A stretch of DNA of 64,000 nucleotides from a candidate division WOR-1 bacterium RIFOXYB2_FULL_36_35 (GCA_001771505.1 MEUA01000010.1:3532-67531), one strand, 5' to 3'. Counted from the first letter of the stretch, positions 16,739 through 57,898 are shown. Translations and numbers: made by a program. The notes: generated from the letters alone by a model not told the origin.

Positions 16739-16817
16739 TAACCCCGATTATTCATACCGTAAGTAATGTTTGACAATTTGTTAGTTATTGATTCTGGGGT
16801 GAATAATCGGGGTTAAG
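16739..16817. repeat. 78-bp family-1 MITE-like element (15-bp TIR AACCCCGATTATTCA with a ~48-bp core); copy A
   Basis: TAACCCCGATTATTCATACCGTAAGTAATGTTTGACAATTTGTTAGTTATTGATTCTGGGGTGAATAATCGGGGTTAAG. Overlaps the fliJ stop codon (TTA at 16813-16815). A degenerate half-site AACCCTGATTATTAGG lies just upstream at 16705-16720. This copy is 100% identical to the inverted copy at 57821-57898. Confidence 0.85.
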
Positions 16818-17292
16818 ATTTTTCTCTCTGATCCCGTTGAAATCTTTGTGTGGCAATTTCATCTAAAAATTTAAGTTCTAAATCTTGCATTAATTTTGTA
16901 TGTTTTTTCTTTGTATTATCTTTATCTTTCTCCATAATTTTTTTATCTTTCATCGACTTAACGAGCTGTTCCCTCTGTTTTTCCAGTTTTTTGCTTGCAT
17001 CTATAACTTTTTCAACCTGTTTTTCTATATCTTCTTTTAATATGCCCAAATGAGAATGGCGGCGCATCACTTCCCCAAAATCAGAGATCGGCCCTGACTT
17101 AAAAACTTTTCTTAAGGTGTTTTCCTGGTCTTTCTTTTCATCCCTTAATTCATCTTCTTTTTTCTTTTCTTTTATATATTCCCTGTTTTTTTCAGCAAAT
17201 TTTTCCTGTTCTTTTTTTTCTCTAATTCCTCTCACCTTTAAAACAGTTTCTAAAGTGTATTTGAATTTGCCCGCTTTTATTTTTCTTGCCAT
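16813..17292 (-). CDS. fliJ: Flagellar export chaperone FliJ (coiled-coil)
   Basis: 159-aa, highly charged, coiled-coil protein immediately downstream of fliI. N-terminus KFKYTLETVLKVRGIREKKEQEKF resembles the FliJ consensus (FRL..LL.lR...e). Confidence 0.55.
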   Translation of the reverse strand: MARKIKAGKFKYTLETVLKVRGIREKKEQEKFAEKNREYIKEKKKEDELRDEKKDQENTLRKVFKSGPISDFGEVMRRHSHLGILKEDIEKQVEKVIDASKKLEKQREQLVKSMKDKKIMEKDKDNTKKKHTKLMQDLELKFLDEIATQRFQRDQREKS

Positions 17293-17308
17293 TTATTTTC
17301 TAACCCGA

Positions 17309-18619
17309 TTATTTAAAGATTTTTACCAGCCTTTTAGCCGTTTCATTAAAATCAATCTGTTCAAAAGTCCCTTGTTGCAAAAACTTATTCACCTCGTCTA
17401 TTTTAGATAAAGCATAATCAATTTTTGGATTACTCCCCTTCACATAAGCTCCGATATTAATAAGATCTTCCGCCTCATTATATCGAGCTAGAACTTCCCT
17501 TAATTTTGCGGCTGCCCCCTTATGGTCATCTTTCACAAGATTTGTCATAAGACGAGAAACACTGTGGGAAACATCAATCGCAGGATAATGGTTTCTGGCT
17601 GCAAGATCACGGGATAACATAATATGACCATCTAAAATAGAACGACACTGATCAGCAATAGGTTCATTAAAATCATCACCTTCAACTAAAATAGTGTAGA
17701 AAGCAGTAATAGAGCCTACAACAGATGTGCCTGATCGTTCCATCAGTTTTGGCAATAATGCAAAGACAGAGGGTGTATAACCTCGGGTTGTCGGAGGTTC
17801 GCCGGCCGCAAGCCCCACTTCACGCTGAGCCATTGCAAACCTTGTAACAGAATCCATCATTAAAATAACCTTATTACCCAAATCTCTAAAATACTCGGCA
17901 ATCGCAGTCGCGACAAAAGCCGCTTTCAACCTAATAAGTGGAGGCTGATCGGAGGTTGCAACAACTACCACAGATTTTTTCAACCCTTCTTCGCCTAAAG
18001 ATTCTTCTATAAAATCTCTTACTTCTCTTCCACGCTCTCCAACTAAAGCAATAACGTTTACTTCTGCTTCCGCATTACGTGCAATCATACCCATAAGTGT
18101 AGATTTGCCAACGCCAGACCCTGCGAAGATACCCATGCGTTGGCCTCGCCCAATAGTCAATAACCCATCTATAGCGCGAACCCCTACTTTTAATATTTCT
18201 GTTACTCTGGGACGTTTTACAGGGTCCGGAGGTTCTGCAAAAAGGGATCTGTCTTTTTCTCCGACAATTTGCCCTTTTCCATCAATGGGTTCCCCCAGTC
18301 CGCTTAAAACTCTACCTAATACATGTTTACCGACTTGAACCATAAGAGGCCTTCCTGCAGCCAGGACCTGAGAACCTGGAGATATACCGTAAGTTGAACC
18401 AAGGGGCATTAATAAAACTCTCTTTTCCCTAAAACCGACAACCTCAGCATAAGATTCACGATCCTCTTTTTCTACCCGTATAACACATAAGTCTCCAACA
18501 GAAACACCCTGAACCTGAGCCTCTATTATAAGCCCCACAACCTGAACTACTTTGCCTATAACTTTTATAAGATCTGTCTTTTCGATAGCACGGTAATACT
18601 TTTCAATATCAATTACCAT
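17309..18619 (-). CDS. fliI: Flagellum-specific ATPase FliI
   Basis: F1/T3SS-ATPase family with Walker A GIFAGSGVGKSTL and Walker B region VILMMDSVTRFA. Sits in the flagellar operon. Confidence 0.9.
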   Translation of the reverse strand: MVIDIEKYYRAIEKTDLIKVIGKVVQVVGLIIEAQVQGVSVGDLCVIRVEKEDRESYAEVVGFREKRVLLMPLGSTYGISPGSQVLAAGRPLMVQVGKHVLGRVLSGLGEPIDGKGQIVGEKDRSLFAEPPDPVKRPRVTEILKVGVRAIDGLLTIGRGQRMGIFAGSGVGKSTLMGMIARNAEAEVNVIALVGERGREVRDFIEESLGEEGLKKSVVVVATSDQPPLIRLKAAFVATAIAEYFRDLGNKVILMMDSVTRFAMAQREVGLAAGEPPTTRGYTPSVFALLPKLMERSGTSVVGSITAFYTILVEGDDFNEPIADQCRSILDGHIMLSRDLAARNHYPAIDVSHSVSRLMTNLVKDDHKGAAAKLREVLARYNEAEDLINIGAYVKGSNPKIDYALSKIDEVNKFLQQGTFEQIDFNETAKRLVKIFK

Positions 18620-19372
18620 TTAAACAGCTTCAACCTCTTCTGATGCCCTTTTTAAAGCTTCCCCCAAAACCTCTATCTTCGTAGAAATTCTAGCATCAAC
18701 ATACCCAAGATTAGTCTCAATAATACAACCACCAGGTTCTATCTGGCTATCTTCCAGAATCGACAAACTTTTTACTCCATCAACAAGTCCAGATAATCTA
18801 TCCTTATAACGCTTTATATAGTCAGCATCTTCCCTGTTTACTTTTATAATTATCTGTTCCCTGTCCGACACCCGGTTTATAGCATCAGAAACCACATTTA
18901 AACAAACATCACGATGCAAAGAGACTTCAGAATGTATAATTTGCTCGGCCGCTTTCAACGCAAGCCTCAATATTTCAGATTCAGCATCTTTAATTATCTC
19001 TTTGCGCTCTTTTACCGCTTGGTTAAGGGTTGAAAGCGCATCTTTTATTTTTTCAGTAGCCTCTTTTTTTCCCTCCTCCCTCCCTCTCTTTTGTGAATCT
19101 TCTCTTATCTTTTTGGCTTCCAGCTTAGCCTCCTCTATAATCCCCCTGGCCTGTTTATCAGCTTCTGATAGTTTCTCTTCATCCGAAATCACATCAGGAA
19201 AAGATTGTTCTTCAGATATTTCTTCCTCTTCCTTAAAAGTTGTATTTTCTTCTTGTCGCAAATCCTGTCCCCAGCCAAAATCGAGGGGTAAATCTTTGGA
19301 TATTCTTATAGGTTTCTTCTCAAGTAAAATCTCCCCTGTTTGCGTAATATTTAACCGCTTTATAAGCCCCAC
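18620..19372 (-). CDS. fliH: Flagellar assembly protein FliH
   Basis: Charged coiled-coil N-terminal half and a conserved FliH C-terminus (PGGCIIETNLGYVDARISTKIEVLGEAL). Adjacent to fliI. Confidence 0.7.
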   Translation of the reverse strand: MGLIKRLNITQTGEILLEKKPIRISKDLPLDFGWGQDLRQEENTTFKEEEEISEEQSFPDVISDEEKLSEADKQARGIIEEAKLEAKKIREDSQKRGREEGKKEATEKIKDALSTLNQAVKERKEIIKDAESEILRLALKAAEQIIHSEVSLHRDVCLNVVSDAINRVSDREQIIIKVNREDADYIKRYKDRLSGLVDGVKSLSILEDSQIEPGGCIIETNLGYVDARISTKIEVLGEALKRASEEVEAV

Positions 19373-19977
19373 TAAACCCTCTCCGCAAAATAAGAAGTGA
19401 GTTTCTCTTGAAGATCTAAAGTAAACGGCGTTTGTTTTAAATTAGGAATTAATTCATCAACCTGATCCCTATTTACAGTCATCTCCATAAGTATCTCCTC
19501 TTTTTTCATAAAAGGAAACATCCCTAAAACAAAAGCAGCAACCTGAGGTTTTTCTTCCGAAAGAATGTTTGCAATTTTTTTGGCATCCGCAGATAGAAGT
19601 TTCTCTTTCGGGGGTAAATTGTCCAAAGGGACAGTTTCAGTCTCTTTTAAATCTTTACCGTAAATAAACTCTTCATCAAAGTTAGAAACAAGATTATTTG
19701 AAGGCTGAGCCATCTTAGATAGTTCAGGTATTTTTACATCTTTATACTTTTTATTAGAAGAAGGAAGCGCAAAATAACTCTGGAAATCCTCAAAAATCTC
19801 ACCTAAAGCCTCAGGTGTAGGTGTAGGTAAATGACTTATGGATGAAGCAATAAGATCAGCTAAATCAGGCGGCAAATAACGCAATATTGCCGAAGATGTA
19901 TCTGATCCTAAAATCGAAAGAAATATAGTTGCTTTTTCTTTTCCTGTTAATTTCACCCTTCCGCCTCCGTAAGCCAT
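19372..19977 (-). CDS. fliG: FliG-like rotor protein, short form (201 aa; N-terminal plus part of middle domain only)
   Basis: The N-terminus (LTGKEKATIFLSILGSDTSSAILRYLPPDLADLI) matches the FliG N-domain. An EHPQ-like EEKPQVAAFVLGMF marks the start of the middle domain. No C-terminal torque-generating domain is present. Positioned between fliF and fliH. Confidence 0.55.
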   Translation of the reverse strand: MAYGGGRVKLTGKEKATIFLSILGSDTSSAILRYLPPDLADLIASSISHLPTPTPEALGEIFEDFQSYFALPSSNKKYKDVKIPELSKMAQPSNNLVSNFDEEFIYGKDLKETETVPLDNLPPKEKLLSADAKKIANILSEEKPQVAAFVLGMFPFMKKEEILMEMTVNRDQVDELIPNLKQTPFTLDLQEKLTSYFAERV

Positions 19978-21584
19978 TTTTTCAAAAGACTGGCTATTTT
20001 TTCCGGATCATTTTTTGCCAAATCTTTAATTTTTCTTACAGTAGCTGTAGCTTCCCCTTCAGTAGGAGCCTCTTTTTCAAACACTACATCTTCTTTCTCT
20101 CTTCTCCCCGAAAGTCTTCTACGCCTTACAACAAGAATAATAAATACAAAAACAAGAATAAAAATCCCACTCAATAAAACGTAAGAAAGATTAAGTTTTA
20201 TTCCAGGAATAACAAAACCAAATAATTTAGATTCCTCTTTTTGTTCCGGAAACTCAGCATAATGAAAAGGGACTCTCTTTAAAATTATTTTATCGCCTCT
20301 GGCCCTATCGTAATCTACGGCTCTTGCTATGGTTTGATATGTAGATTTTCTAACTCTCAGAGTAAGATCCAAATTTTCATCAACCAAGGTCATTACTACT
20401 ATATCTTTAATTGGAACATAAATAAATCCTGATCCCGCATTTATTTTAAGCTTGGACTCCTTCTTTCCTTTTGGAGGCTGACCAAAATTAACATTTACTC
20501 TAACAATTATAGTATCTTCGGGATAAAACTGATTTAAAAGATCTTGAGCTTTAGCCGTCAGTTGTCTTTCATATTCTTCTTTTGCCTTCATTTTCAAAAC
20601 ATTCTTATCAGAATCCGTTAAATCCGCAATCTTTTTTTCAACTTTAGGAAATTGTTCTATAACTTCTATATTTTTTTCTTCGTTTTTTACGATCTCATTT
20701 TTAACTTCACTTGTATTTATACTGCTTTCAGGCTTCTCTTCTTCCCCTTTTACTATAATGTTTTCACTCCCTGCCGCTTTTTCTGATTTTTGAACTTCGT
20801 TATTAGGTATTGTCTCTTCCAATCCCTCTTTTTTAATAATTTCTTGTTCTATAGGAGCTTGAACCGTCTTTTTTATAAGTTCGCTTGCCGTCGGAATTTT
20901 TTCCATATAAGTTGAATCAGAAGTCAAAATATTTCCTGCATTGTCAACGATTGTCACATTTTCAGATAAAAGCCCTTCAACGCTGTGAGAAACAAGCTTA
21001 ACTATCCCCCCAACCTGTTCAGGAGTTAAACGTTCTCCAGGGGTAATCTTTAACAACACAGCGGCTGTCACGGGAGATTTTGTAACCTCAAACAATTTAG
21101 TTTCAGGAAGAACTATTTGAACGTGTGCGTCTTCCACCCCTCTTATTCTTTTAATTGTTCTTGAAAGCTCACCTGAAATTGCGCGTATTAGTTGAATTCT
21201 TCTGTCAAAATCGGTAGCTCCCATACGCGTTTCATTAAAAAGTTCCCATCCAACAGAACCACCAATAGGAAGATTCTTTTCGGCCAAACCCAATTTAGCT
21301 TCATCAGATTTATCTTTAGGAACAGCTATCGCAGATCCCTCTTCTTTTACTTCATAAGGTATTTTTAATTCTTTCAGGCGTGAAACAACATTAGCAGTAT
21401 CTTTTAAATCCAAACCGGTATAAATAGTTAAATATCCGCTGTTTTGATTTTTTATTCCGGAAACACAACCACGCAATGACCACAAAAACACAATCAAAAC
21501 AACAGCAATAACAACGCCAATTATTACAAGTAATCTTCTATTACTTATTAAAGTCAGTCCCCTAGTACTTCCCGTCTCTGCCAT
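19953..21584 (-). CDS. fliF: Flagellar M-ring protein FliF
   Basis: N-terminal TM helix, then YLTIYTGLDLKDTANVVSRLKELKIPYEV (FliF/YscJ secretin-ring domain), a second TM near the C-terminus, and a C-terminal cytoplasmic tail. Confidence 0.85.
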   Translation of the reverse strand: MAETGSTRGLTLISNRRLLVIIGVVIAVVLIVFLWSLRGCVSGIKNQNSGYLTIYTGLDLKDTANVVSRLKELKIPYEVKEEGSAIAVPKDKSDEAKLGLAEKNLPIGGSVGWELFNETRMGATDFDRRIQLIRAISGELSRTIKRIRGVEDAHVQIVLPETKLFEVTKSPVTAAVLLKITPGERLTPEQVGGIVKLVSHSVEGLLSENVTIVDNAGNILTSDSTYMEKIPTASELIKKTVQAPIEQEIIKKEGLEETIPNNEVQKSEKAAGSENIIVKGEEEKPESSINTSEVKNEIVKNEEKNIEVIEQFPKVEKKIADLTDSDKNVLKMKAKEEYERQLTAKAQDLLNQFYPEDTIIVRVNVNFGQPPKGKKESKLKINAGSGFIYVPIKDIVVMTLVDENLDLTLRVRKSTYQTIARAVDYDRARGDKIILKRVPFHYAEFPEQKEESKLFGFVIPGIKLNLSYVLLSGIFILVFVFIILVVRRRRLSGRREKEDVVFEKEAPTEGEATATVRKIKDLAKNDPEKIASLLKKWLTEAEG

Positions 21585-21652
21585 TTAATCCCCCTTTTCG
21601 ATTAAAGAGATAAACTATTTGCTGTTTTCTGTCTTCTATTTCCTATCTCCCT

Positions 21653-22006
21653 TTATACCTGCATCTGAGTAATTTCTTTAAACGTTCCTACCACTGAAGT
21701 TATTATCGTTGTAGCCAATTGAACCATTACTCCCATCTCAGACGCAGCAAACATCACTTCTTGCAAATTGGCTTCACCTCTAGCGTATTTTTCCATAAGT
21801 TGATTAGCATGCGCCTCTGTCTGAGAAACTCCTTGTAGTGCATCTATGGCTTTTGCCAATACATCATCAAAAATATTTTTGCTTGTGGTACTATTTAAAG
21901 CTACTCCGTCGTAAGGAGCTGAATCTGGCAAAACCTGAGCGACATTAAAATCATCATCTAAAAGTTTATTTAATCTGATTTCCAAAGGATTGATCTGCTC
22001 AACCAT
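21653..22006 (-). CDS. fliE: Flagellar hook-basal body protein FliE
   Basis: 117 aa. Conserved C-terminus MGVMVQLATTIITSVVGTFKEITQMQV. Lies between fliF and flgC. Confidence 0.7.
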   Translation of the reverse strand: MVEQINPLEIRLNKLLDDDFNVAQVLPDSAPYDGVALNSTTSKNIFDDVLAKAIDALQGVSQTEAHANQLMEKYARGEANLQEVMFAASEMGVMVQLATTIITSVVGTFKEITQMQV

Positions 22007-22041
22007 GTTAATCCCCTCCTACACACTTTAAACTTATAAAA

Positions 22042-22464: not shown

Positions 22465-22467
22465 AGA

Positions 22468-22752
22468 TTATCTCCTCCCTTGTGAAGCAATTGTCTTTAA
22501 TGTGTTTATTTTATAACTTAACAATTTTACTAAAGAAGAATACCTTAACACATTCTGCGAGATCTCATCCATTTCTTGTTCTACAGTAATCTTTTTGTCT
22601 TCTCTTTTTATAACTTTTTGTAAAACTTCATCAAAGGTATTAGGTTCGAACCCGGGGGTATTTATATTTGCTAAGTTATGGGCAGCAACCTCCTGCTTTA
22701 TGATAGTCTCTCCCAATGCCCCCTTTAAACTGATATAAGCAGGATCAAACAT
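22468..22752 (-). CDS. flgB: Flagellar proximal rod protein FlgB (short, 94 aa)
   Basis: Carries the rod N-terminal motif AAHNLANINTPGF. Sits immediately upstream of flgC. Shorter than typical FlgB. Confidence 0.6.
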   Translation of the reverse strand: MFDPAYISLKGALGETIIKQEVAAHNLANINTPGFEPNTFDEVLQKVIKREDKKITVEQEMDEISQNVLRYSSLVKLLSYKINTLKTIASQGRR

Positions 22753-23767: not shown

Positions 23768-23771
23768 TTTA

Positions 23772-27864: not shown

Positions 27865-27952
27865 TATTCCTCCTGTTTTCTTCTATTCGGGTCAAACGAT
27901 CATCATTGCATTAAGAATGAGAAAGATCAGCAGATTACTCAATAAAACTGGA

Positions 27953-27983
27953 ATTATTATACCACTTGAAAAGACAAAATCAA
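27953..27983 (-). promoter_or_regulatory. Candidate sigma-70-type promoter for the flgF...fliJ operon
   Basis: On the minus strand: TTGATT (-35), a 16-nt spacer, then TGGTATAAT (extended -10). It lies ~90 nt upstream of the flgF start codon. Confidence 0.35.
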
Positions 27984-28057
27984 TTAAAATTTTGTATGTT
28001 TTTTTTGAAATTAAACTCTTCTTTTGCTGATAATAAACTATAGGGGAATCAAAGCTT

Positions 28058-28098
28058 AACCCCGATTATCTTTATTGGGGAAAATAATCGGGATTAAT
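28058..28098. repeat. Family-1 palindromic element in the divergent promoter region
   Basis: TTAACCCCGATTATC-TTTATTGGGGAAAA-TAATCGGGATTAA, between flgF (minus) and the 587-aa gene (plus). Confidence 0.7.
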
Positions 28099-28139
28099 TA
28101 AGAATAACTAATGTATTGTGTTTAAGGAGATAAATCAGA

Positions 28140-29903
28140 ATGAAAGTACTAAGAGGGAGTGGATGGGACACCAGCCGAACAATAAATTTTATTCTAGGAA
28201 GAACAACCTATATCGAAACTTTTTTGGGATCATTTAAGAGCGGAAGAGTAAAAGTACATATATCTCCATCATTGAGCAGACATGCAGTTGATGTTAAAGT
28301 TAAAAAAGAAAATGAAGTAGTTGGCAGAGTAAAAAGAGATGAAGTAGCTTTTCTTTCAATAGGGACAATTCAAATTTTCTTAACTCAATACAATGAAATA
28401 ACAATTGGGAAAAAAATCCCATCAAATGAACATGGCGCCGCAGATATAATGATTGAAGATAGTTTTCTTCCTAAGCAATTTTTTTCTATATATTTTGATA
28501 GAGACAATCAATGTTTTGCTCTCAAAGTGTTTTCCAATCATAGCCGCCTCACTATATACGACAACTACAAAGGAAGACAAGAGCAGGTATTACTTGACTG
28601 CGATACGGAACCTTTTTTGCTTTCCCCTTACAATATTATTGAATTCGAACTATCCGGAATTAATAGTTTTGGGGAACAAGAAAGAGCAACAATATCATTT
28701 AGACATGTTATACGAAATGGTACGCCCCAAACAAAAAAAGAACCAGAACTAATGTTGCCCCCGCCATTTTTTAATATAACCCAAACAGAACCAAGGACAA
28801 ATGGTATTCCCCCAACAAGCCTTACAGAAGATTCTCCTTGCAAAAGCATAGTCCTAAGACAACCAATGCCAATTATAACAAACGGTCATTTTCTTAAAAG
28901 ATGGCAAATTAAAAATTTAATGGATATCGATACTCCCCAAGCATGGGAAATTCTTCTGACCAAAACAAAGAGAAGATTTCTACTTTCATTATTAAAAACA
29001 AAAAACCGCGATAAATTACTTAGAATATCTGATTTGGCAAAAACCGGCAATTTAGCAGCCAGCAATTTTTTATGCTCTTACCTGCCACAAATGGGAAAAA
29101 AAGATTTTACACAATTAGCATCTTCTCACGGAGACCTAAAACACATAACAAGTTCTCTTAATTTGTCGCAGCTTTATTCTCTTGTAAAAACAGAATCTTC
29201 TGTTAAAGCGGGAAAAAGTCTATGGGGACTTAAAGATGAGGTTTTTCGAAAAATTTTACAACAAGCAGAAGGGCTTGACAATGAAGCTATTCAATTATTA
29301 TTTCAATTCTTAATTTCAGAAAAAGACATGTTTTATGTTATGCATCTTAATGACATTGCACTTCTTGAAAGATCGTTGCCATTGGTTGGCAGGGACAACA
29401 TAGAAAAATTGCTATCAATGTTAATTGATTTTGTGAAAAAATCTTCAGGATCAACAAGGAAAAAGATGTTTTTGCCAATAAAAACAATACTAGAATTTTT
29501 AATACGTAAAGCAAAAACATCTGCAACAAAAAATTTATATATATTTATTATAACAGACTTCCTGTTCTATAAATTTCCTTCTGAATACATAGGCTATATG
29601 GAAGCTTACAAGATTTTTGAACTTTGTCTGTATGATTGTTTAAGATGGGAAGATTTATATGCTTTATTAAATAGCGACAAATTCCCTAAAACCTCCGAAG
29701 GGAAAGAAGCTTATAAAAAAGTCCTTCTTATTGTTTTGGATGCAGCAGAAAAAGGAAACGCAAAAGCCAAAAAGTGTCTTAAAGATCACTTACTAAGGAT
29801 AGATACTTACTGGCTAAAATATTTAAAGGTTTTTGGAACTTCTGACGGTTGGGGGATTTTTACACAGCACTGGCCCAGAATCAGAAAAATCAATGAGGAT
29901 TAA
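28140..29903 (+). CDS. Hypothetical 587-aa protein, mostly alpha-helical; possible FHA-like N-terminus
   Basis: Good Shine-Dalgarno (AAGGAGA). Transcribed divergently from the flagellar operon. N-terminal FILGRTTYIETF...HISPSLSRHAVDV loosely fits the GR...SxxH spacing of FHA domains, but this is a weak call. No enzymatic motif. Confidence 0.5.
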   Translation: MKVLRGSGWDTSRTINFILGRTTYIETFLGSFKSGRVKVHISPSLSRHAVDVKVKKENEVVGRVKRDEVAFLSIGTIQIFLTQYNEITIGKKIPSNEHGAADIMIEDSFLPKQFFSIYFDRDNQCFALKVFSNHSRLTIYDNYKGRQEQVLLDCDTEPFLLSPYNIIEFELSGINSFGEQERATISFRHVIRNGTPQTKKEPELMLPPPFFNITQTEPRTNGIPPTSLTEDSPCKSIVLRQPMPIITNGHFLKRWQIKNLMDIDTPQAWEILLTKTKRRFLLSLLKTKNRDKLLRISDLAKTGNLAASNFLCSYLPQMGKKDFTQLASSHGDLKHITSSLNLSQLYSLVKTESSVKAGKSLWGLKDEVFRKILQQAEGLDNEAIQLLFQFLISEKDMFYVMHLNDIALLERSLPLVGRDNIEKLLSMLIDFVKKSSGSTRKKMFLPIKTILEFLIRKAKTSATKNLYIFIITDFLFYKFPSEYIGYMEAYKIFELCLYDCLRWEDLYALLNSDKFPKTSEGKEAYKKVLLIVLDAAEKGNAKAKKCLKDHLLRIDTYWLKYLKVFGTSDGWGIFTQHWPRIRKINED

Positions 29904-29945
29904 GCTGCCTAAGCCTGATTTTTTGAGGCAGAAAACATCGTCTTT

Positions 29946-43812: not shown

Positions 43813-43986
43813 CCCCGATGGGGCTGTTACATAATGGTCATTCCCGTGAAAACGGGAATCTATTTTTCATAAAACAACCCCGATTATAATAATCGGGGTT
43901 AAGATGGATCCCCGCTTTTGCGGGGATGACAAATTGCAAAAACTATTATTACGCAACAAGCCCCCGATTAGGATAATCGGGGTTAA
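43810..43986. repeat. Composite/nested repeat block: family-2 element interrupted by a family-1 palindrome and flanked by family-1 (half-)sites
   Basis: AACCCCGAT half-site (43810-43820). Family-2 copy (43822-43960, TIR-like GGCTGTTACATAATGGTCA ... ACGCAACAAG, hairpins ATTCCCGTGAAAACGGGAAT and ATCCCCGCTTTTGCGGGGAT). Inside it, a perfect family-1 AACCCCGATTA-TAA-TAATCGGGGTT (43876-43900). Then CCCCCGATTA-GGA-TAATCGGGGTTAA (43961-43986). Confidence 0.8.
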
Positions 43987-51800: not shown

Positions 51801-51808
51801 ATTAATTT

Positions 51809-52738
51809 TTAAAAATTGATACGCTCTTCTTCAATAACAAGAGGCCTTTTTAAAACCTGGGTATGAATAGAACCTATATATTCACCTATTATACCTATAA
51901 AAAACAGTTGGACAGACGAAAAGAAAAACAGGCCTATTACCAAAGGAGCAATACCAACATCAAAATTATTCCAGAAGATAAGTTTATAGATCAAGTAACC
52001 AAAAGCCACAAAAATACTCATAGTTGAAACAAAAAAACCAAGCATCGTAGCTAATCTTAACGGAACTTTTGAGTAACTGGTAATGCCAAGCATTGCAACA
52101 TCATACAGATTATAAAAATTATTTTTTGCCCTCCCCTTTTCTCTTTTAGGCTGAGCATATTCTATTTTTGCAACCTCAAACCCAATTTCACAAATAAGGC
52201 CTCTAAAATACGGATAAGGATCTTTTATCGTTCTTAGCACATCCACGATTTTTTTATCGTATAATCCAAAGCCAAAAAAGTTTTTAATTTGTTTAATCTC
52301 TGAAAGTTTTTCTATGATGTCATAAAAAAGATTTCTAATGCCAAACATCAAAAAAGATTCCTTACTCTCCTTTTTCACCCCCACAACAATTTTATACCCC
52401 TCTTCCCATTTTTTTAAAAAATCCGCTATCATCTCAGGAGGATCCTGCAAATCCGAAGCTATATTGGTAACAGCATCCCCTTTTGCCTGCAAAATAGCAT
52501 GATAAGGAGACCGAATCCATCCAAAGTTCCTGCTGTTAACTATAATCTTAACTCTTTTATCTTCCTGCGCTATTTTTTTTAAGATACTAACCGTTTTATC
52601 TTTTGAATCGTTATCGATAAAAATATGTTCATAGGAATATTGTGTAAGGCCCTCAAAAACTTTTTTAACCCGCTTATACACCTCTTCAATATTTTCCTCT
52701 TCATTATAAGAATGAGTAACAACACTAATTAATTTCAT
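51809..52738 (-). CDS. Glycosyltransferase family 2 (polyprenyl-phosphate hexose synthase-like, DPM1/GtrB type)
   Basis: LISVVTHSYNEEENI, the DxD region (IFIDNDSKD), and C-terminal TM helices typical of GtrB/ArnC-like enzymes. Confidence 0.8.
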   Translation of the reverse strand: MKLISVVTHSYNEEENIEEVYKRVKKVFEGLTQYSYEHIFIDNDSKDKTVSILKKIAQEDKRVKIIVNSRNFGWIRSPYHAILQAKGDAVTNIASDLQDPPEMIADFLKKWEEGYKIVVGVKKESKESFLMFGIRNLFYDIIEKLSEIKQIKNFFGFGLYDKKIVDVLRTIKDPYPYFRGLICEIGFEVAKIEYAQPKREKGRAKNNFYNLYDVAMLGITSYSKVPLRLATMLGFFVSTMSIFVAFGYLIYKLIFWNNFDVGIAPLVIGLFFFSSVQLFFIGIIGEYIGSIHTQVLKRPLVIEEERINF

Positions 52739-52755
52739 ATTAAAAAATCTCCATT

Positions 52756-53805
52756 TTATTTTCCAAGATATTCTTCTATCTGATTAAAACAGATTGCTTT
52801 TACATCCTGTTTTTGCAGATAACAGTTTAGCCAATCAATGATTTTATCAAGAGCAGTTTTCAATGTCCATTTCGGATCCCAGTTTAATCTTGTTCTTGCT
52901 TTTGTTGAATCCAAGATCAAACAAGTCGTTTCATGGGGATGATCATTTGAATCAATTTCAAATCCATCTCCTTCTCCCAATCGCGTATACAAGTAATCTA
53001 AAATCCACTTAACAGATTTGATGTCTTTCTTGTCCGGCCCGAAATTCCATGCTTCTGAATATTTTTTGCTGTTTTCAACAAGTTTTTGAGCCAATATAAG
53101 ATAACCGCTCAATGGCTCTAAAACGTGTTGCCAAGGTCTTATCGAATTCGGATTTCTAATAAGAAGCTTTCTCTTAAACAGAATAGCCCTGAAAAAATCG
53201 GGAATCAACCTATCTTTCGCCCAGTCCCCACCCCCTATAACATTCCCGGCTCTTGCAGTTGCGATTCCAATAGACCCAAAAAAAGAATCTCTGTAAGCAG
53301 ATGTTACAATCTCCGAACAGGCTTTGCTGCTGGAGTAAGGATCATGCCCACCCAAAACCTCATCTTCTTTATATCCTGTTTTCTTCTCCCTATTTTGATA
53401 ACACTTATCTGTCGTAACATTTATAACAGCCTTTATGCTTTTACAACTTCTTGCAGCTTCCAAAAGGTTAACTGTTCCTATAACATTGGTAGTATAAGTT
53501 TCAACAGGATCTTTATATGATGCTCGCACTAAAGGCTGCGCTGCCATATGGATTACCACATCAGGAGCAGCTTTTAACATCGACTTTTTAAGTTCCCTAC
53601 CATTCCTAACATCATCAATTACAGAAGTTATTAAATTATCAATACTACAAAGCTCAAACAAATTAGGTTTTGTCGGAGGTTTAAGCGCATACCCCGTAAC
53701 CTTAGCGCCTAAATAAGAAAGCATTAAACATAGCCATGAACCTTTAAATCCGGTATGACCAGTAACAAAAACTCTCTTATTTTTCCAGAATATTTTATTG
53801 ACCAA
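52756..53805 (-). CDS. CDP-glucose 4,6-dehydratase-like extended SDR
   Basis: VFVTGHTGFKGSWLCLML Rossmann motif, YSSSKACSE catalytic motif, and overall RfbG-like length and architecture. Confidence 0.7.
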   Translation of the reverse strand: MVNKIFWKNKRVFVTGHTGFKGSWLCLMLSYLGAKVTGYALKPPTKPNLFELCSIDNLITSVIDDVRNGRELKKSMLKAAPDVVIHMAAQPLVRASYKDPVETYTTNVIGTVNLLEAARSCKSIKAVINVTTDKCYQNREKKTGYKEDEVLGGHDPYSSSKACSEIVTSAYRDSFFGSIGIATARAGNVIGGGDWAKDRLIPDFFRAILFKRKLLIRNPNSIRPWQHVLEPLSGYLILAQKLVENSKKYSEAWNFGPDKKDIKSVKWILDYLYTRLGEGDGFEIDSNDHPHETTCLILDSTKARTRLNWDPKWTLKTALDKIIDWLNCYLQKQDVKAICFNQIEEYLGK

Positions 53806-55684
53806 TGTTTACTATTATCTTTCCTTTTTGTAAAACGTTATAAATACCTTCCGCATCCAATTTCAACATTTTTAAAATTTCCGATCTCGTGCCATGTTCT
53901 ATGTATTGGTCAGGAAGGCCAAGCTTCAAAACAGGTTTATTGATCTTGTTTTCACTTAAAAGATCGATAACAGCGGAACCAAACCCGCCATTAACAGAAC
54001 CTTCTTCAAGTGTCACAATAGTTTCAAAACTGGTAACCATTTCTAAAATAAGATCTTTATCAATAGGTTTTGCAAAACGCGCGTTTACAACAGTTGTATC
54101 ACCCATTCTCTTGGCTACTTCCATTGCAGTATAAACCATAGAGCCCAAAGCCAAAATCAAAACTTTAGGCAAACCAGATTTTGAAACGACCTCAGCTTTA
54201 AAAAGTTCCATGTTTTTAAAATTATCATCAAGTCTTGTTGCTATCCCTTCACCTTTTGGGAATCTAATCGCCACAGGAGAATTAAGATTTATAGCCGTAA
54301 AAAGCATGTGTTGCAATTCATTTTCATCTTTCGGAGCCATTATTATAATGTTAGGAATAGTCCTAAGATAAGAAATATCAAAAAACCCATTGTGGGTTGG
54401 GCCGTCTTCTCCCACAATCCCCGCCCTATCTACAATAAAAACAACAGGCGCATTTTGCAAACAAACATCATGATGAATTTCGTCATATGCCCGTTGTAAA
54501 AAAGTTGAATAAATAGCAACTACAGGTTTTAATCCCCCTTTTGCAAGCGCTCCTGCAAATGTCACAGCATGTTCTTCCGCAATGCCAACATCAAAAAATC
54601 TGTTAGGGAATTTTTCCGCGAAGAGTTCAAGCCCTGTACCATCAACCATGGCGGCTGTTACCGCGACTATATTTGTATTCTTTTCCGCGATTTTCGCAAT
54701 CGCCTGACCAAAAACCTGGGTATAGGTTTTCTTATGATTGCCATTTTTCAATGTTTTTCCCGATTCTATGTCGAAAGGACCCGTACCATGAAACTTTGTC
54801 GGATTTTCTTCCGCGGAAATATATCCCTTCCCTTTCTTGGTCAAAATATGTAATAAAACCGGCCCATTAATCTCTTTTGCATGATGAAGAGTGCTCATAA
54901 GAAGTGGAAGGCTATGCCCATCAATCGGACCGAAATACTTAAACCCCATCTCTTCAAAAATAACATCAATTTTAAGTCCTGTAACTATATGGCGGGTCCT
55001 CTCTTTTAATTTTCGTGCAGATTCAAAAAGAGACTTTCCTTGAGGAAGTTTTTTAACCAGATTTTCCACTCTACCGCTCAACTCGTTATAAAAATTCGAA
55101 GTACGCACAACAGTCAAATATTTAGAAAGCGAACCCACATTTTTTGATATGGACATTTCATTATCATTTAATATTATAATCATGTTGCTTTTTAAAGAAC
55201 TCGCGTTGTTAATTCCTTCAAATGCCAAGCCACTGGACAAAGCGGCATCTCCAATAACAGCTATCACAGAATAATTTTCACCTTTTATATCTCTTGCATG
55301 AGCCAACCCCAATGCCTGAGAAATAGAAGTAGAGGCGTGACCTACCGTAAAAATATCATGAGGGCTTTCGGAACTATTTGGAAAACCGCTTATTCCTTTG
55401 AATTGCCGTAAAGAGTAGAACTTGTCTTTTCTGCTTGTCAATATTTTATGGGCATAAGCCTGGTGCCCCACATCCCAAATTATTTTATCTTTTGGGGATT
55501 CAAAAGTAGAATGAAGGGCAATAGCAAGCTCTACCGCTCCAAGACTGGAGGCAATATGTCCGCCAGTTTTCGATACAACTTTAATTATAATTGCCCTTAC
55601 TTCATCTACCAATTGTTGCAATTGTTTTGCAGATAGATGCCTTAAAGTTTCAGGCAATTTTAGTTCATCCAATAAACGTTTCAT
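53795..55684 (-). CDS. dxs: 1-deoxy-D-xylulose-5-phosphate synthase
   Basis: ThDP-binding GDG motif (VIGDGALSSGLAFEGINNA), the DXS histidine region (GHASTSIS), and transketolase-like domains. Confidence 0.9.
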   Translation of the reverse strand: MKRLLDELKLPETLRHLSAKQLQQLVDEVRAIIIKVVSKTGGHIASSLGAVELAIALHSTFESPKDKIIWDVGHQAYAHKILTSRKDKFYSLRQFKGISGFPNSSESPHDIFTVGHASTSISQALGLAHARDIKGENYSVIAVIGDAALSSGLAFEGINNASSLKSNMIIILNDNEMSISKNVGSLSKYLTVVRTSNFYNELSGRVENLVKKLPQGKSLFESARKLKERTRHIVTGLKIDVIFEEMGFKYFGPIDGHSLPLLMSTLHHAKEINGPVLLHILTKKGKGYISAEENPTKFHGTGPFDIESGKTLKNGNHKKTYTQVFGQAIAKIAEKNTNIVAVTAAMVDGTGLELFAEKFPNRFFDVGIAEEHAVTFAGALAKGGLKPVVAIYSTFLQRAYDEIHHDVCLQNAPVVFIVDRAGIVGEDGPTHNGFFDISYLRTIPNIIIMAPKDENELQHMLFTAINLNSPVAIRFPKGEGIATRLDDNFKNMELFKAEVVSKSGLPKVLILALGSMVYTAMEVAKRMGDTTVVNARFAKPIDKDLILEMVTSFETIVTLEEGSVNGGFGSAVIDLLSENKINKPVLKLGLPDQYIEHGTRSEILKMLKLDAEGIYNVLQKGKIIVNIGQ

Positions 55685-55695
55685 AATTAATCAAA

Positions 55696-56151
55696 TTAAA
55701 AAATGATTGTATATGCTAATACAGCGGTAATAACTCCCAAAAGTCCTCCGATAAAAACTTCAAAAGGAGTATGGCCTATAAGCTCTTTCATTTTTTCCTT
55801 TTCAGAAACTTTTTCCGAGTATATATCTTCTATGATTTTATTGAGTACAACAGCCTGCTGACCCGCCGCAAAACGAACCCCCATAGCATCATACATAACA
55901 ATAATTGAAAAAACCACAGCTACCGCAAAAATAGGAGATGAAAACCCTTCCGTTAAACCTATCATAAGAGTCATCGCGGACGACATGGACGAATGGGTAG
56001 AAGGCATCCCCGCGGCTTGAAAAAAATGGCTGGGATTAAATTCTTTATCCTTAAAATAATAATAAATTATTTTTAAAGTTTGAGAAAGCAAAAAAGCAAT
56101 TCCACCTGTTAGCAGCGGCACATTTGATAAAAGCATTGTTATCGTATTCAT
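55696..56151 (-). CDS. DUF212 / divergent PAP2-family membrane protein (YuiD-like)
   Basis: 151 aa with a GMPSTHSSM motif and four TM helices. Confidence 0.65.
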   Translation of the reverse strand: MNTITMLLSNVPLLTGGIAFLLSQTLKIIYYYFKDKEFNPSHFFQAAGMPSTHSSMSSAMTLMIGLTEGFSSPIFAVAVVFSIIVMYDAMGVRFAAGQQAVVLNKIIEDIYSEKVSEKEKMKELIGHTPFEVFIGGLLGVITAVLAYTIIF

Positions 56152-56179
56152 TTATTTAAAACTCCATTTAAAAATTTGA

Positions 56180-56294
56180 GACTGTTGCGTAATGACAGTT
56201 TTTGCGATTTGTCATCCCCGCGAAAGCGGAGATCCATTTTGTTTCCTGAGAAATAGATTCCCGTTTTCACGGGAATGACCATTTCGCAACAGTC
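56180..56294. repeat. Family-2 MITE-like element (115 bp, imperfect 17-19-bp TIRs GACTGTTGCGTAATGACAG / TGACCATTTCGCAACAGTC, two internal hairpins)
   Basis: Contains the hairpins ATCCCCGCGAAAGCGGAGAT and ATTCCCGTTTTCACGGGAAT. Homologous, in inverted orientation, to 43822-43960. Confidence 0.8.
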
Positions 56295-56321
56295 CCAATT
56301 TAGTAAATAAGCAATGAGTTA

Positions 56322-57167
56322 TCACTTTTCCCTGTTTACCACAAAATCAGCCAATAAAACCAAATTTTCAGCCTTTTTACCAAATTGATTCAAAGCTTTT
56401 TTTGCCTTTTTTGAATGAAAAGAAGCCATTTTTTTTGCTTCTTCCACCCCTAAAATTGAAACATAAGTCGATTTCTTATTTTTTTCATCCAACCCGGCAG
56501 GCTTTCCTAATGCTTTACTGTCAGACGTTGCGTCTAGTATATCATCAGCTATTTGAAATGCCAACCCCAAATGATATCCATAATTAGAAAAGGCTTTTAA
56601 TTGCTTATCTTTGGCTCCTCCCAAAATTCCCCCGATTTTTAAAGATGCCTGTACAAGAGCCGCTGTTTTCAAAAGATGCATCTCTCTTAATTTTTTCAAA
56701 CCAACGTTTTTCCTTTCTGCCTGTATATCTATAACCTGACCATATACAACATTAATTAAAGCGCGGGACAAGCAAGAGATAACCTGCGCCACCTTCGCGG
56801 GTTTACAATTTTTTGCAATTACTTCAAATGCAAGAGTATTTAAAGCGTCTCCCGCCAACAACGCTATATCTTCACCAAAAATTTTATGACAGGACGGTTT
56901 CCCTCGTCTCAAATCAGAATTATCCATACAGGGAAGATCATCATGTATTAAAGTAAAGGTGTGGATCATTTCTATGGCGCAAGCAGCGGGAATTACATCG
57001 GCTTTTTTGCCACCGCAAATTTTACAGGCCTCCAGGGACAAATAAGAACGGAATCTTTTGCCGCCAATCATAGCTGAATATCTCATGGCAGAAGACAAAG
57101 ATGATTTATCTTTCGGGAGATATCTTTTTAGCGCGGCATCTATCTGTTTTATAAATATTTTGTCCAC
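56322..57167 (-). CDS. ispA: Polyprenyl diphosphate synthase (farnesyl/geranylgeranyl diphosphate synthase)
   Basis: FARM LIHDDLPCMDNSDLRRGKP and SARM FQIADDILD motifs. Confidence 0.8.
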   Translation of the reverse strand: MDKIFIKQIDAALKRYLPKDKSSLSSAMRYSAMIGGKRFRSYLSLEACKICGGKKADVIPAACAIEMIHTFTLIHDDLPCMDNSDLRRGKPSCHKIFGEDIALLAGDALNTLAFEVIAKNCKPAKVAQVISCLSRALINVVYGQVIDIQAERKNVGLKKLREMHLLKTAALVQASLKIGGILGGAKDKQLKAFSNYGYHLGLAFQIADDILDATSDSKALGKPAGLDEKNKKSTYVSILGVEEAKKMASFHSKKAKKALNQFGKKAENLVLLADFVVNREK

Positions 57168-57211
57168 TGACTAAATTATTGCATAAGATAAGATTATGGG
57201 CAAATATTTTA

Positions 57212-57248
57212 GCCCGAATTATTACATCGGAATAAATAATCGGGATTA
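57212..57248. repeat. Degenerate family-1 palindrome (CCCGAATTATT...AATAATCGGGATTAA)
   Basis: Imperfect arms. Lies between the 3' end of the 184-aa ORF and the 5' end of ispA. Confidence 0.4.
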
Positions 57249-57800
57249 ATATATTATGCGTGACGAATCAATCATTACACCGGCGCCAAACATAAGGTGA
57301 TCGGAATTTGTCATCTCTAATATGCCAACGTAATAAACATCTTCATCCTCGGTCTTTGAAATAACAAGAGCGTCCTGCCCTCGTTTAGTTAAAATTCCAT
57401 TCATAGCAAGATCGGAAGAGCAAGCTACAAGATTTATTATTTCAAGTTGATGTTGTTCTCTCAGTAAATAAACCACGGAGTTACTAGCATCACCAGAACA
57501 ATCCAATATTGAATTAACAAAATGACTATTAGCTGTTTTCAGGATTACAATTAGTTCTGGTATGTCAGCAGATGGGAATCTTGTACAAATAACTTCTAAA
57601 GAATGAACTTCTCCTCTAGACCTTGGATGTCCAAAATGTGGATGCATAGTCAATCCTCCAATTAATCTTTTCATTAATGGTGAATCTGTCTCTCTAGGCA
57701 TAACAGGAAACTCCAACCCATTACTTCTTCGTTTAAAAGTAGAGACTGGACTCTTTCCAATGTCTGTAGACCTAAAACCTGAATTAATTTGTATTGACAT
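57246..57800 (-). CDS. Hypothetical protein, 184 aa
   Basis: ORF flanked on both sides by family-1 elements. No motif recognised. Confidence 0.4.
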   Translation of the reverse strand: MSIQINSGFRSTDIGKSPVSTFKRRSNGLEFPVMPRETDSPLMKRLIGGLTMHPHFGHPRSRGEVHSLEVICTRFPSADIPELIVILKTANSHFVNSILDCSGDASNSVVYLLREQHQLEIINLVACSSDLAMNGILTKRGQDALVISKTEDEDVYYVGILEMTNSDHLMFGAGVMIDSSRIIY

Positions 57801-57820
57801 AATTAGCTCCTTTTTTATAT

Positions 57821-57898
57821 TAACCCCGATTATTCACCCCAGAATCAATAACTAACAAATTGTCAAACATTACTTACGGTATGAATAATCGGGGTTAA
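57821..57898. repeat. 78-bp family-1 MITE-like element, copy B (inverted orientation relative to copy A at 16739-16817)
   Basis: Reverse complement is 100% identical over 78 nt to 16740-16817. TTAA is present at both ends. Confidence 0.85.

What the first reader, a model, noticed from the sequence alone, without database searches (positions are those of the whole stretch)
16739..57898. Two 78-bp copies of the long family-1 variant are 100% identical and inverted, 41 kb apart
16740-16817 equals the reverse complement of 57821-57898 at every one of 78 positions. The match includes a 48-bp non-palindromic core (ATACCGTAAGTAATGTTTGACAATTTGTTAGTTATTGATTCTGGGGTG). Perfect identity suggests very recent transposition or gene conversion. 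A large inverted pair like this could support inversion of the intervening 41 kb, which contains the whole flagellar rod/ring operon, pheST and other genes. The core carries a TTGACA hexamer, so the element might deliver an outward promoter. That last point is speculative.
Basis: seen in the sequence. Interest (0 to 1): 0.6.

Follow-up and report, generated by a model that had tools for sequence, protein, structure and literature searches.

The report
Tiny jumping-DNA element, two fresh copies
The two identical inverted 79-bp sequences are the two youngest copies of a small non-coding mobile element (a MITE) present about 22 times in this uncultivated groundwater bacterium, so the pair is ordinary mobile DNA, and a flip of the 41 kb between them is hinted at by only one doubtful assembly.

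Summary
16738-16816 and 57820-57898 are 100% identical in inverted orientation.

[quoted passage not shown] Its layout is CCCCGATTATTCA, a 45-nt core, then TGAATAATCGGGG, flanked by a 4-bp target-site duplication, TTAA at both window copies.

Across 24 independent insertions, 19 have perfect 4-bp direct repeats of the form TNNA. Ten of these are non-palindromic, which excludes simple hairpin extension.

The host is a candidate division WOR-1 (Saganbacteria) organism from the Rifle aquifer. Its genome holds about 22 intact copies in several core subfamilies. Eight belong to the window's subfamily (0-5 differences among seven, the eighth with an indel), and the window pair is the only identical pair among them. 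That fits very recent transposition.

No transposase partner was found. The ends resemble those of ISEcp1 (IS1380 family) at 9 of 14 positions.

Inversion: about 20 or more contigs from several assemblers show the window's arrangement. One low-coverage ENA scaffold carries exactly the predicted inversion junction. The reciprocal junction was never seen, and the same assembly series makes a demonstrably chimeric join at this element.

The TTGACA hexamer has no -10 partner and is subfamily-specific. Other outward promoter-like pairs exist but are untested.

Verdict: a new member of a known kind, of modest interest.

The parts
16738..16816 (+). MITE copy 1. The element proper is 16742-16812 (13-bp terminal inverted repeats plus a 45-nt core). 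TTAA duplications lie at 16738-16741 and 16813-16816. The strand reading TTCATACC... is the window + strand.
   Evidence: The minus-strand stop codon of fliJ (16813-16815) lies inside the right TTAA.
57820..57898 (-). MITE copy 2, 100% identical to copy 1 and inverted. The element proper is 57824-57894, with TTAA on both sides. It ends 19 bp upstream of the ATG of ORF 57246-57800.
16703..16737 (+). Degraded left half of another subfamily of the same family (TTAACCCTGATTATT..AGGAGGAATTTCAAACAGTC, like the L033 type), abutting copy 1.
   Evidence: (3 mismatches to the terminal repeat), compared by eye with the L033 element.
16813..17292 (-). fliJ, the last gene of the fliE-fliJ flagellar block. 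Its stop codon is in the duplicated TTAA.
   Evidence: Pfam FliJ 2e-10.
16061..16639 (-). 192-aa ORF of unknown function downstream of copy 1. Together with ORF 15306-15977 it is absent between fliJ and glyA in the sister species.
57246..57800 (-). 184-aa ORF of unknown function immediately downstream of copy 2 (RBS AAGGAG, ATG 57800).
58033..58413 (-). NTase_sub_bind / HepT-like gene upstream of copy 2.
16747..16776 (-). Promoter-like pair TTGTCA-18-AATAAT (10/12) reading out of copy 1 towards the 192-aa ORF. The mirror pair TTGTTA-18-AATAAT lies at 16778-16807 (+).
   Evidence: Consensus match only: 4 sites found against 1.8 +/- 1.4 in shuffles.
57829..57858 (-). Promoter-like pair TTGTTA-18-AATAAT (9/12) reading out of copy 2 towards the 184-aa ORF. 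The mirror pair TTGTCA-18-AATAAT lies at 57860-57889 (+).
7459..7573 (+). 115-bp composite member of the family. It has outer terminal repeats, two nested short hairpins and TTCA/TTCA flanks. It lies in frame inside thioredoxin-like ORF 7388-7924.
2450..2469 (.). 20-bp minimal member CCCCGATTAGGAAATCGGGG flanked by TTCA/TTCA.
10786..10835 (.). Short hairpin (10786-10806) plus a solo right terminal repeat CGAATAATCGGGGTTAA (10819-10835).
15230..15250 (.). Short hairpin CCCCGATTAGGATAATCGGGG between glyA and ORF 15306-15977.
28060..28093 (.). 34-bp member flanked by TTAA/TTAA, next to a lineage-specific 587-aa ORF (28140-29903).
43878..43982 (.). Two short hairpins (43878-43898 and 43962-43982).
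57208..57250 (.). Degenerate family member downstream of the 184-aa ORF.
58796..58816 (.). Short hairpin CCCCGATTATCCTAATCGGGG flanked by TTAA/TTAA.

Best explanation
The two sequences are copies of a 71-bp non-autonomous transposon (MITE) with no coding capacity. It has 13-bp perfect terminal inverted repeats, CCCCGATTATTCA / TGAATAATCGGGG.

Inferred mechanism: a transposase supplied in trans binds the two ends and inserts the element at staggered cuts in a TNNA target, most often TTAA. Repair of the cuts leaves a 4-bp direct duplication. From sequence alone, a 2-bp duplication with A/T as the outermost element bases would look the same.

The family is active in this WOR-1/Saganbacteria genome. 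It has diversified into several core subfamilies and into 20-35-bp minimal derivatives. It often inserts into the TTCA of another copy's terminal repeat.

The window pair differs at no position because both descend from the same master copy by the most recent transposition events in its subfamily. Copy 1 landed on the TTAA that holds the fliJ stop codon. Copy 2 landed 19 bp upstream of a 184-aa gene. Any effect on neighbouring genes (outward promoter-like sites, an mRNA hairpin) or on genome structure (a recombination substrate) is a side effect, not the reason the sequence exists.

Shown: structure, duplications, copy number and recency. Inferred: a DDE-type, probably IS1380-like (piggyBac-related) transposase acting in trans.
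For: Structure and chance.

Family census:
- A scan of JGI metagenomes for the two terminal repeats 30-60 nt apart gave 32 loci, plus 2 from the GTDB species-representative genomes. These collapse to 24 independent sites.
- 19 of 24 sites have identical 4-nt flanks: TTAA x9, TAAA/TTTA x7, TGAA/TTCA x3.
- Ten of these are non-palindromic direct repeats. None shows the inverted flanks expected if the hairpin simply extended.
- P about 1e-17 for agreement of the two middle bases alone.

Same genome as the window:
- RuvB next to the L014 copy is 100% identical to WOR-1 RIFOXYA2_FULL_36_21.
- 10 of 10 tested loci carry proteins exactly identical to the same MAGs that hold the window's proteins.

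Recency: the window pair has 0 differences, against 1-5 to the other gap-free subfamily copies. Identical pairs also occur in other subfamilies (L015=L024, L038=L039).

Nesting and minimal forms: minimal 20-bp members have TTCA/TTCA or TGAA/TGAA flanks and nest inside terminal repeats.

Location: all simple copies are intergenic, in every gene-orientation class. Five abut stop codons.

Not a known or conserved RNA: only the terminal-repeat stem is conserved as structure across subfamilies. Rfam gave nothing but generic hairpin matches far below threshold.

End similarity: ISEcp1's left end, read from an E. coli record, matches at 9 of 14 positions, P about 0.004.
Against: No autonomous element was found:
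- no pair of terminal repeats 1-2.5 kb apart;
- no multi-copy segment longer than 250 bp;
- no IS1380-like ORF (tblastn) in about 500 kb of held DNA;
- no transposase among about 40 window ORFs scanned.

No clean empty site was obtained. In the sister species the fliJ-glyA spacer lacks the element, but it also lacks 1.6 kb of neighbouring DNA.

The core is 45 nt in nearly all simple elements although subfamily cores are highly divergent. A simple 'decaying junk' picture does not predict this.

Some short hairpins (15230, 10786) have inverted rather than direct flanks.
Confidence: 0.85

Rival explanations
1. The inverted pair is an active recombination substrate. Homologous recombination between the two 79-bp copies flips the 41-kb block (flagellar basal-body genes, pheST, polysaccharide genes), and both orientations coexist in the population.
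For: ENA ERZ28564009 scaffold_9385 (L046/L050/L058) equals window 6820-16816 at 100%, then the element, then the reverse complement of window 57819-56919. That is exactly one of the two junctions an inversion would make, with no Ns at the junction. The 184-aa protein variant on it (P0003) is known from this contig only.
Against: - Only 1 contig shows it. Look-ups of all four flanking proteins read 24 contigs each, including about 15 contigs of 50-200 kb from JGI, NCBI, ENA and Logan. Every other distinct place shows the window arrangement or a break at the element, apart from the chimeric L012.
- The reciprocal junction (fliJ | element | NTase gene) was never seen.
- About 9.9 kb on the left is 100% window-like. 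The right 901 bp has 4 SNPs clustered in 58 bp. That pattern fits a graph mis-join between strain variants.
- L012, from the same assembly series, joins the same 184-aa flank through the element to DNA with no close match in the protein collection and no named WOR-1 MAG. Its best protein match is 91% identical, in an unnamed contig.
- GC skew and gene strand are continuous across both copies.
- No recombinase gene is adjacent.
Confidence: 0.2
2. The perfect identity is maintained by gene conversion between old copies rather than by recent insertion.
For: Identity stops close to the element borders, which either model predicts. Other copies of the subfamily differ by 1-5 nt.
Against: The tract is only 79 bp and the copies are 41 kb apart in inverted orientation. 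Three subfamilies each have one identical pair at unrelated sites, which is what ongoing transposition gives. Conversion would have to act pairwise and selectively.
Confidence: 0.08
3. The element is a functional cis-regulatory module, spread because it is useful. It would act as an outward promoter for the downstream genes, or as an mRNA-stabilising or processing hairpin.
For: Two outward promoter-like pairs use the invariant AATAAT of the terminal repeat as -10. In both window copies one of them faces a downstream gene on the same strand. At copy 2 the predicted start lies about 22 nt before the ATG, upstream of the RBS. One strand folds about 10 kcal/mol better because of G-U pairs.
Against: - The -35-like hexamers occur only in the window subfamily.
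- The number of promoter-like sites is not above shuffles.
- Insertions occur in convergent, divergent and co-directional spacers, in both orientations.
- The two window copies present opposite strands to the local mRNA.
- No T-run follows the hairpin, and 0 terminator-like sites were found.
- No structure beyond the terminal stem is conserved.
Confidence: 0.12
4. It is a REP/BIME-type palindromic unit mobilised as single-stranded DNA by a RAYT (IS200-like tyrosine transposase), not a cut-and-paste MITE.
For: The family includes many 20-30-bp perfect hairpins in intergenic DNA. No DDE partner was found.
Against: 4-bp direct duplications flank 19 of 24 long copies and many short ones. REPs and IS200/IS605 elements make none (established knowledge of those families). 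There is no GTAG-type 5' motif. No Y1 transposase was found among the ORFs scanned.
Confidence: 0.04

Closest known systems
Correia elements (CREE/NEMIS) of Neisseria
   Same: Both are short non-coding elements with terminal inverted repeats. Both are present in many near-identical intergenic copies flanked by a short AT target duplication. Neither has a partner transposase in the genome. Both carry promoter-like sequences at the ends and form hairpins when transcribed. (Properties of Correia elements are from my own knowledge.)
   Different: The sequences are unrelated. This element is 71 bp against about 100-155 bp. Its duplication is 4-bp TNNA against TA. Its terminal repeats are 13 bp against 26 bp. 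There are about 22 copies against hundreds. No transcription or RNase III data exist here.
IS1380-family insertion sequences (e.g. ISEcp1), the bacterial relatives of eukaryotic piggyBac
   Same: The ends begin with CC. ISEcp1 IRL CCTAGATTCTACGT matches CCCCGATTATTCAT at 9 of 14 positions. From my own knowledge, not tested here: IS1380 elements make 4-5-bp duplications, piggyBac makes TTAA duplications and has CCC...GGG ends, and IS1380 members carry outward promoters (PMC9330008).
   Different: No transposase gene is present in the element or in 500 kb of held DNA. The element is 71 bp against about 1.6 kb. Descent from an IS1380-type element is therefore a lead, not a result.
Rickettsia palindromic elements (RPE)
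   Same: Both are palindromic mobile repeats that can sit in frame inside protein-coding genes. Here the 115-bp composite lies inside thioredoxin-like ORF 7388-7924.
   Different: Only one such case was seen in the window, and the two copies of the finding are intergenic. RPEs are 100-150 bp and unrelated in sequence (own knowledge).
REP/BIME elements with RAYT transposases
   Same: Both give short GC-stemmed hairpins scattered in intergenic DNA, sometimes clustered.
   Different: Direct target duplications are present here. There is no conserved GTAG motif and no RAYT gene was seen.

Membership tests
MITE (miniature inverted-repeat transposable element) | Short (< about 300 bp) with no coding capacity | tested here: met
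   71 bp. No ORF of 20 aa or more can fit; by inspection it has stop codons in all frames.
MITE (miniature inverted-repeat transposable element) | Terminal inverted repeats | tested here: met
   13-bp perfect repeats, invariant in 18 distinct sequences.
MITE (miniature inverted-repeat transposable element) | Target-site duplication flanking independent insertions | tested here: met
   19 of 24 sites have identical 4-nt flanks (TNNA). Ten are non-palindromic and none is inverted. P about 1e-17.
MITE (miniature inverted-repeat transposable element) | Multiple dispersed copies in one genome | tested here: met
   About 22 intact copies on contigs assigned to the same WOR-1 population.
MITE (miniature inverted-repeat transposable element) | Presence/absence polymorphism (empty sites) | tested here: inconclusive
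   The sister species lacks the element after fliJ but also lacks 1.6 kb of adjacent DNA. The L059 orthologue diverges right after the stop codon.
MITE (miniature inverted-repeat transposable element) | Cognate autonomous element with matching ends | tested here: inconclusive
   None in about 500 kb of held DNA.
IS1380-family derivative | Ends related to IS1380-family inverted repeats (CC...) | tested here: inconclusive
   9 of 14 matches to ISEcp1 IRL and 7 of 14 to IRR. Only one family member was compared.
IS1380-family derivative | IS1380-type DDE transposase in the same genome | tested here: not met
   tblastn with the ISEcp1 transposase against all held DNA gave no hit better than E = 2.7. 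The held DNA is only part of the genome.
REP/RAYT system | No target duplication; a RAYT gene flanked by REPs | tested here: not met
   Duplications are present. No Y1 transposase among the scanned ORFs.
Intrinsic terminator | GC-rich stem-loop followed by a T-run | tested here: not met
   0 terminator-like sites at either copy. The flanks are TTAAGAC... and TTAATATAAAAAAGG.
Programmed invertible segment (site-specific invertase switch) | Inverted repeats flanking the segment, a recombinase gene nearby, and both orientations present | tested here: not met
   No recombinase next to either copy. The second orientation is supported by one doubtful scaffold only.
Known RNA family (Rfam 15) | Match at the gathering score | tested here: not met
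   The best match is 27.8 bits against a gathering score of 84, a generic hairpin match to a plant miRNA precursor.

The most novel reading that the evidence does not exclude
The family may be a length-locked micro-transposon. Its core is 45 nt in nearly all simple copies despite highly divergent subfamily cores, and it has 20-bp minimal derivatives that still make TNNA duplications. It would be driven by an IS1380/piggyBac-like enzyme in Saganbacteria, with the spacing of the two ends, or a fold-back form, being what the enzyme reads. Its inverted copies would really rearrange the chromosome, including the 41-kb flagellar/polysaccharide block (scaffold_9385) and the synteny breaks and ORFan insertions seen next to family members.
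Probability: 0.12. Interest if true: 0.55.

Novelty: new member of a known kind. Interest (0 to 1): 0.3.

Why it matters
This appears to be an undescribed MITE family; two literature searches found nothing on it. It occurs in a candidate phylum, Saganbacteria/WOR-1, a sibling lineage of Cyanobacteria known only from metagenomes.

Practical consequences:
- The element breaks or mis-joins assemblies (L008, L012, L051, L064, possibly L046).
- One carrier contig, deposited in a 'Sulfurimonas' MAG, proved to be mis-binned WOR-1 DNA. Repeats like this can mislead assembly and comparative work on these genomes.

Biological points that could reward follow-up by a mobile-DNA specialist:
- the clean TNNA duplications;
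- the self-nesting in TTCA of other copies;
- the 20-bp minimal members;
- the fixed 45-nt core.

None of this changes the picture of how MITEs work. The idea that the pair flips the flagellar region remains unproven.

Tried and rejected
- **Known RNA.** Rfam at gathering and at permissive thresholds gave only tRNAs and sub-threshold generic hairpins.
- **Conserved RNA structure.** RNAalifold on 18 distinct sequences kept only the terminal-repeat stem, with no covariation inside. The strand asymmetry of folding is confined to the window subfamily.
- **Autonomous element.**
  - A candidate pair of ends 1.8 kb apart in L036/L024 proved to be unrelated short hairpins inside a 693-aa ORF.
  - All-against-all BLAST of the held loci showed no IS-like repeat.
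  - Pfam on ORFs next to the copies in other organisms (L001, L022) gave no transposase.
  - tblastn with the ISEcp1 transposase gave nothing.
  - BLAST against plasmids gave only chance matches.
  - The viral-contig scan gave one unrelated hit, L047.
- **Third copy via L012.** Its response-regulator flank has no close match in the protein collection and none in a named WOR-1 MAG (best 91%). L012 is therefore read as a chimeric scaffold and not counted.
- **Cross-phylum spread ('Sulfurimonas' L002).** Rejected: the contig is WOR-1.
- **Composite transposon (two elements mobilising the 41 kb, or the 192/223-aa gene pair).** The outer flanks are uninformative (all TTAA) or unequal (TGGA against TTAA), so there is no support.
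- **Literature.** No paper mentions the motif other than as chance primer matches. Nothing was found on repeats in Saganbacteria. The IS-family review table I wanted is not held.
- **L064.** It turned out identical to the window and broken inside the element, so it gave no new information.


Full report
**1. Observation**

The identical unit is 79 bp: 16738-16816 equals the reverse complement of 57820-57898. The match runs to 82 nt with one mismatch.

The unit reads TTAA-CCCCGATTATTCA-[45 nt]-TGAATAATCGGGG-TTAA. It therefore has perfect terminal inverted repeats. The whole unit folds as one imperfect hairpin, at -35.5 kcal/mol for the strand reading TTCATACC... and -25.2 for the other strand.

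**2. Organism**

Exact-sequence look-ups place the window in a Rifle aquifer population of candidate division WOR-1 (Saganbacteria). The MAGs are RIFOXYA2_FULL_36_21, RIFOXYB2_FULL_36_35 and RIFOXYD2_FULL_36_8. The region also lies on JGI contig C687J26860_1000023 and on NCBI MEUK01/METR01. The window is 35.4% G+C.

The 41 kb between the copies holds the following:
- fliJ-fliE, flgC/B, a sigma factor and flgI/H/A/G/F;
- ribosomal protein L25, pheT, pheS and an rRNA methylase;
- a polysaccharide gene cluster;
- dxs, a DUF212 gene, a polyprenyl synthase and a 184-aa ORF.

**3. What the unit is**

I scanned for the two 13-nt ends 30-60 nt apart. This gave 2 loci in the GTDB species-representative genomes and 32 in JGI metagenomes. 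After merging the same locus seen in several samples, there are 24 independent insertion sites.

The four bases outside CCCC...GGGG are identical on the two sides at 19 of 24 sites:

| Flank | Sites |
|---|---|
| TTAA | 9 |
| TAAA/TTTA | 7 |
| TGAA/TTCA | 3 |

Ten of these are non-palindromic direct repeats. No site has the inverted flanks expected if the palindrome merely extended outward. Chance agreement of the two middle bases alone has P about 1e-17.

These are target-site duplications. The element is therefore a MITE of 71 bp with a TNNA target. Sequence alone cannot separate a 4-bp duplication from a 2-bp duplication with A/T as the outermost element bases.

The imperfect cases are partly nested insertions into the TTCA of another copy's terminal repeat, for example L017.

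**4. Census in the window's own genome**

- The 'Sulfurimonas' contig (L002 = L014) carries a RuvB 100% identical to WOR-1 RIFOXYA2_FULL_36_21. It is mis-binned.
- All 10 of the JGI loci tested carry proteins exactly identical to those of the same MAGs that hold the window's proteins.
- The JGI hits are therefore a genome-wide census of about 22 copies with intact ends. L001, L022 and L045 come from other organisms and have other cores.
- Eight copies belong to the window's core subfamily. The window pair differs at 0 positions. The others differ from it by 1 (L042), 2 (L014, L044), 4 (L031, L018) and 5 (L025), and L017 has an indel.
- Two other subfamilies also contain one identical pair each.

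The pair is thus the youngest product of an active family. It is not a unique structure.

**5. Family anatomy**

- Across 18 distinct sequences, only the 13-nt ends and a few core positions are invariant. Only the terminal stem is a conserved structure.
- The core is 45 nt in nearly all simple elements, although subfamily cores are highly divergent (visibly so in the alignment). I cannot explain this length constraint. A requirement of the transposase for a fixed spacing of the two ends is a guess.
- The family also has minimal members of 20-35 bp, for example CCCCGATTAGGAAATCGGGG. These are often flanked by TTCA/TTCA or TGAA/TGAA and often sit inside the TTCA of a longer copy's terminal repeat.
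- Some short hairpins (15230, 10786) have inverted rather than direct flanks.
- All simple long copies are intergenic. They occur in co-directional, convergent and divergent spacers and in both orientations. Five abut a stop codon, which is natural for a TNNA target.

**6. Transposase**

None was found. The checks were:
- no pair of ends 1-2.5 kb apart that bounds an ORF of the right kind;
- no multi-copy segment among the held loci;
- no transposase among the scanned ORFs.

From memory, the IS1380 family has ends beginning with CC and makes 4-5-bp duplications. It is the bacterial relative of piggyBac, which has CCC ends and duplicates TTAA. As a test, I read the ISEcp1 ends from an E. coli chromosome. 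IRL CCTAGATTCTACGT matches CCCCGATTATTCAT at 9 of 14 positions (P about 0.004). tblastn with its transposase finds nothing in 500 kb of held DNA. The family assignment stays a lead.

**7. Inversion**

I looked up all four flanking proteins (FliJ, the 192-aa ORF, the 184-aa ORF and the NTase-binding protein). Each look-up read 24 contigs, about 15 of them 50-200 kb long, from JGI, NCBI, ENA and Logan. Apart from the exceptions below, every distinct place shown has the window arrangement or a contig end inside the element.

*Exception 1: ENA ERZ28564009 scaffold_9385.*
- It equals window 6820-16816 at 100%, then the element, then the reverse complement of 57819-56919.
- This is exactly one of the two junctions an inversion would create.
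- The right part carries 4 SNPs within 58 bp.

*Evidence against reading it as a real inversion.*
- The reciprocal junction is never seen.
- Divergence is zero over 9.9 kb on one side and clustered on the other.
- Scaffold L012, from the same assembly series, joins the same 184-aa flank through the element to DNA with no close match in the collection and no named WOR-1 MAG (best protein match 91%, unnamed contig). That assembler therefore does make chimeric joins here.
- GC skew is uniformly negative across both copies, so the window orientation is the long-standing one.

I put a real inversion polymorphism at about 0.2.

**8. Promoter idea**

The forward TTGACA has no -10 partner and is not reported by the scan. 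The scan does report TTGTCA-18-AATAAT (10/12) and TTGTTA-18-AATAAT (9/12). Both read outward at the two ends and use the invariant AATAAT of the terminal repeat as -10.

At copy 2 the second of these faces the 184-aa gene, whose RBS and ATG follow within 19 bp. At copy 1 the first faces the 192-aa ORF.

The -35-like hexamers are confined to this subfamily, and the site counts are not above shuffles. No terminator-like site is present at either copy.

**9. Context from a sister species**

In WOR-1 RIFOXYA2_FULL_37_7 (FliI 89% identical), fliJ is followed after 40 bp by glyA. The window organism has 1.64 kb there: copy 1, two ORFs without Pfam hits, and a short hairpin.

Likewise, a 587-aa ORF plus a 34-bp family member lie between the flhB-like gene and flgF only in the window organism. 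Synteny with the sister ends at the family members at 10786-10835.

Family members thus mark the edges of lineage-specific DNA. Whether they cause this is not shown.

**10. Verdict**

This is a real MITE with a good target-duplication record, and it appears to be undescribed. It is a new member of a known kind. The inversion is unproven. The promoter idea is wrong in its specifics and untested in general.

Noticed in passing
window 7459-7573 (inside ORF 7388-7924): A 115-bp composite member of the family lies in frame in the N-terminal part of a thioredoxin-like gene, at codons ~24-62, before the Trx domain that starts at residue 76. It has outer terminal repeats, two nested short hairpins and TTCA/TTCA flanks. 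The same 178-aa ORF is called in other assemblies. This resembles the in-frame Rickettsia palindromic elements.
   Followed up: partly
window 43819-43958 and 56183-56297: Two further repeat families, unrelated to this one, form 88-90% inverted pairs 12 kb apart inside the 41-kb segment. Their sequences are GGTCATTCCCGTGAAAACGGGAATC... and GATCCCCGCTTTTGCGGGGATGAC...AATTGC. Copies also occur in other contigs of the same genome (L017, L023, L038, L040, L043).
   Followed up: no
window 15126-16816 compared with L060 5803-5844: In the sister species (WOR-1 RIFOXYA2_FULL_37_7), fliJ is followed after 40 bp by glyA. The window organism carries 1.64 kb there: MITE copy 1, ORFs of 192 and 223 aa without Pfam hits, and a short family hairpin at 15230-15250.
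   Followed up: partly
window 27865-29945 compared with L066 878-1001: A 587-aa ORF without Pfam hits (28140-29903, opposite strand) and a 34-bp family member (28060-93) lie between the flhB-like gene and the flgF promoter. They are present only in the window organism. Synteny with the sister species also ends next to the family members at 10786-10835.
   Followed up: partly
L002 (NZ_MICC01000001.1, 'Sulfurimonas sp. RIFOXYB12_FULL_35_9'): This contig of a public Sulfurimonas MAG is WOR-1 DNA. Its RuvB is 100% identical to that of WOR-1 RIFOXYA2_FULL_36_21, and it equals JGI contig Ga0208953_1000048. It is a binning error in a GTDB species-representative genome.
   Followed up: yes
L012 (ENA ERZ28563756 scaffold_19574) and L046/L058 (ERZ28564009 scaffold_9385): Two scaffolds of one assembly series join the 184-aa gene flank, through the 79-bp element, to a different left flank. 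One left flank is foreign DNA. The other is the copy-1 flank. Several other contigs end inside the element (L008, L051, L064). The element is an assembly breakpoint and mis-join site.
   Followed up: yes
alignment A1 (18 distinct elements); window 16742-16812: The core length is 45 nt in nearly all simple elements, although different subfamilies have highly divergent cores. This points to a constraint on length rather than on sequence, and it is unexplained.
   Followed up: partly
window 5725-5809 and 5830-5913: Two tandem tRNA genes, 94% alike over their first 34 nt.
   Followed up: no
L036 7540-7590 (inside ORF 6020-8101): Short family hairpins also lie inside a 693-aa ORF of the same genome (gaaccccgatttcgtaatcggggtgaataatcggggtttaag). 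This is another possible in-frame insertion.
   Followed up: no
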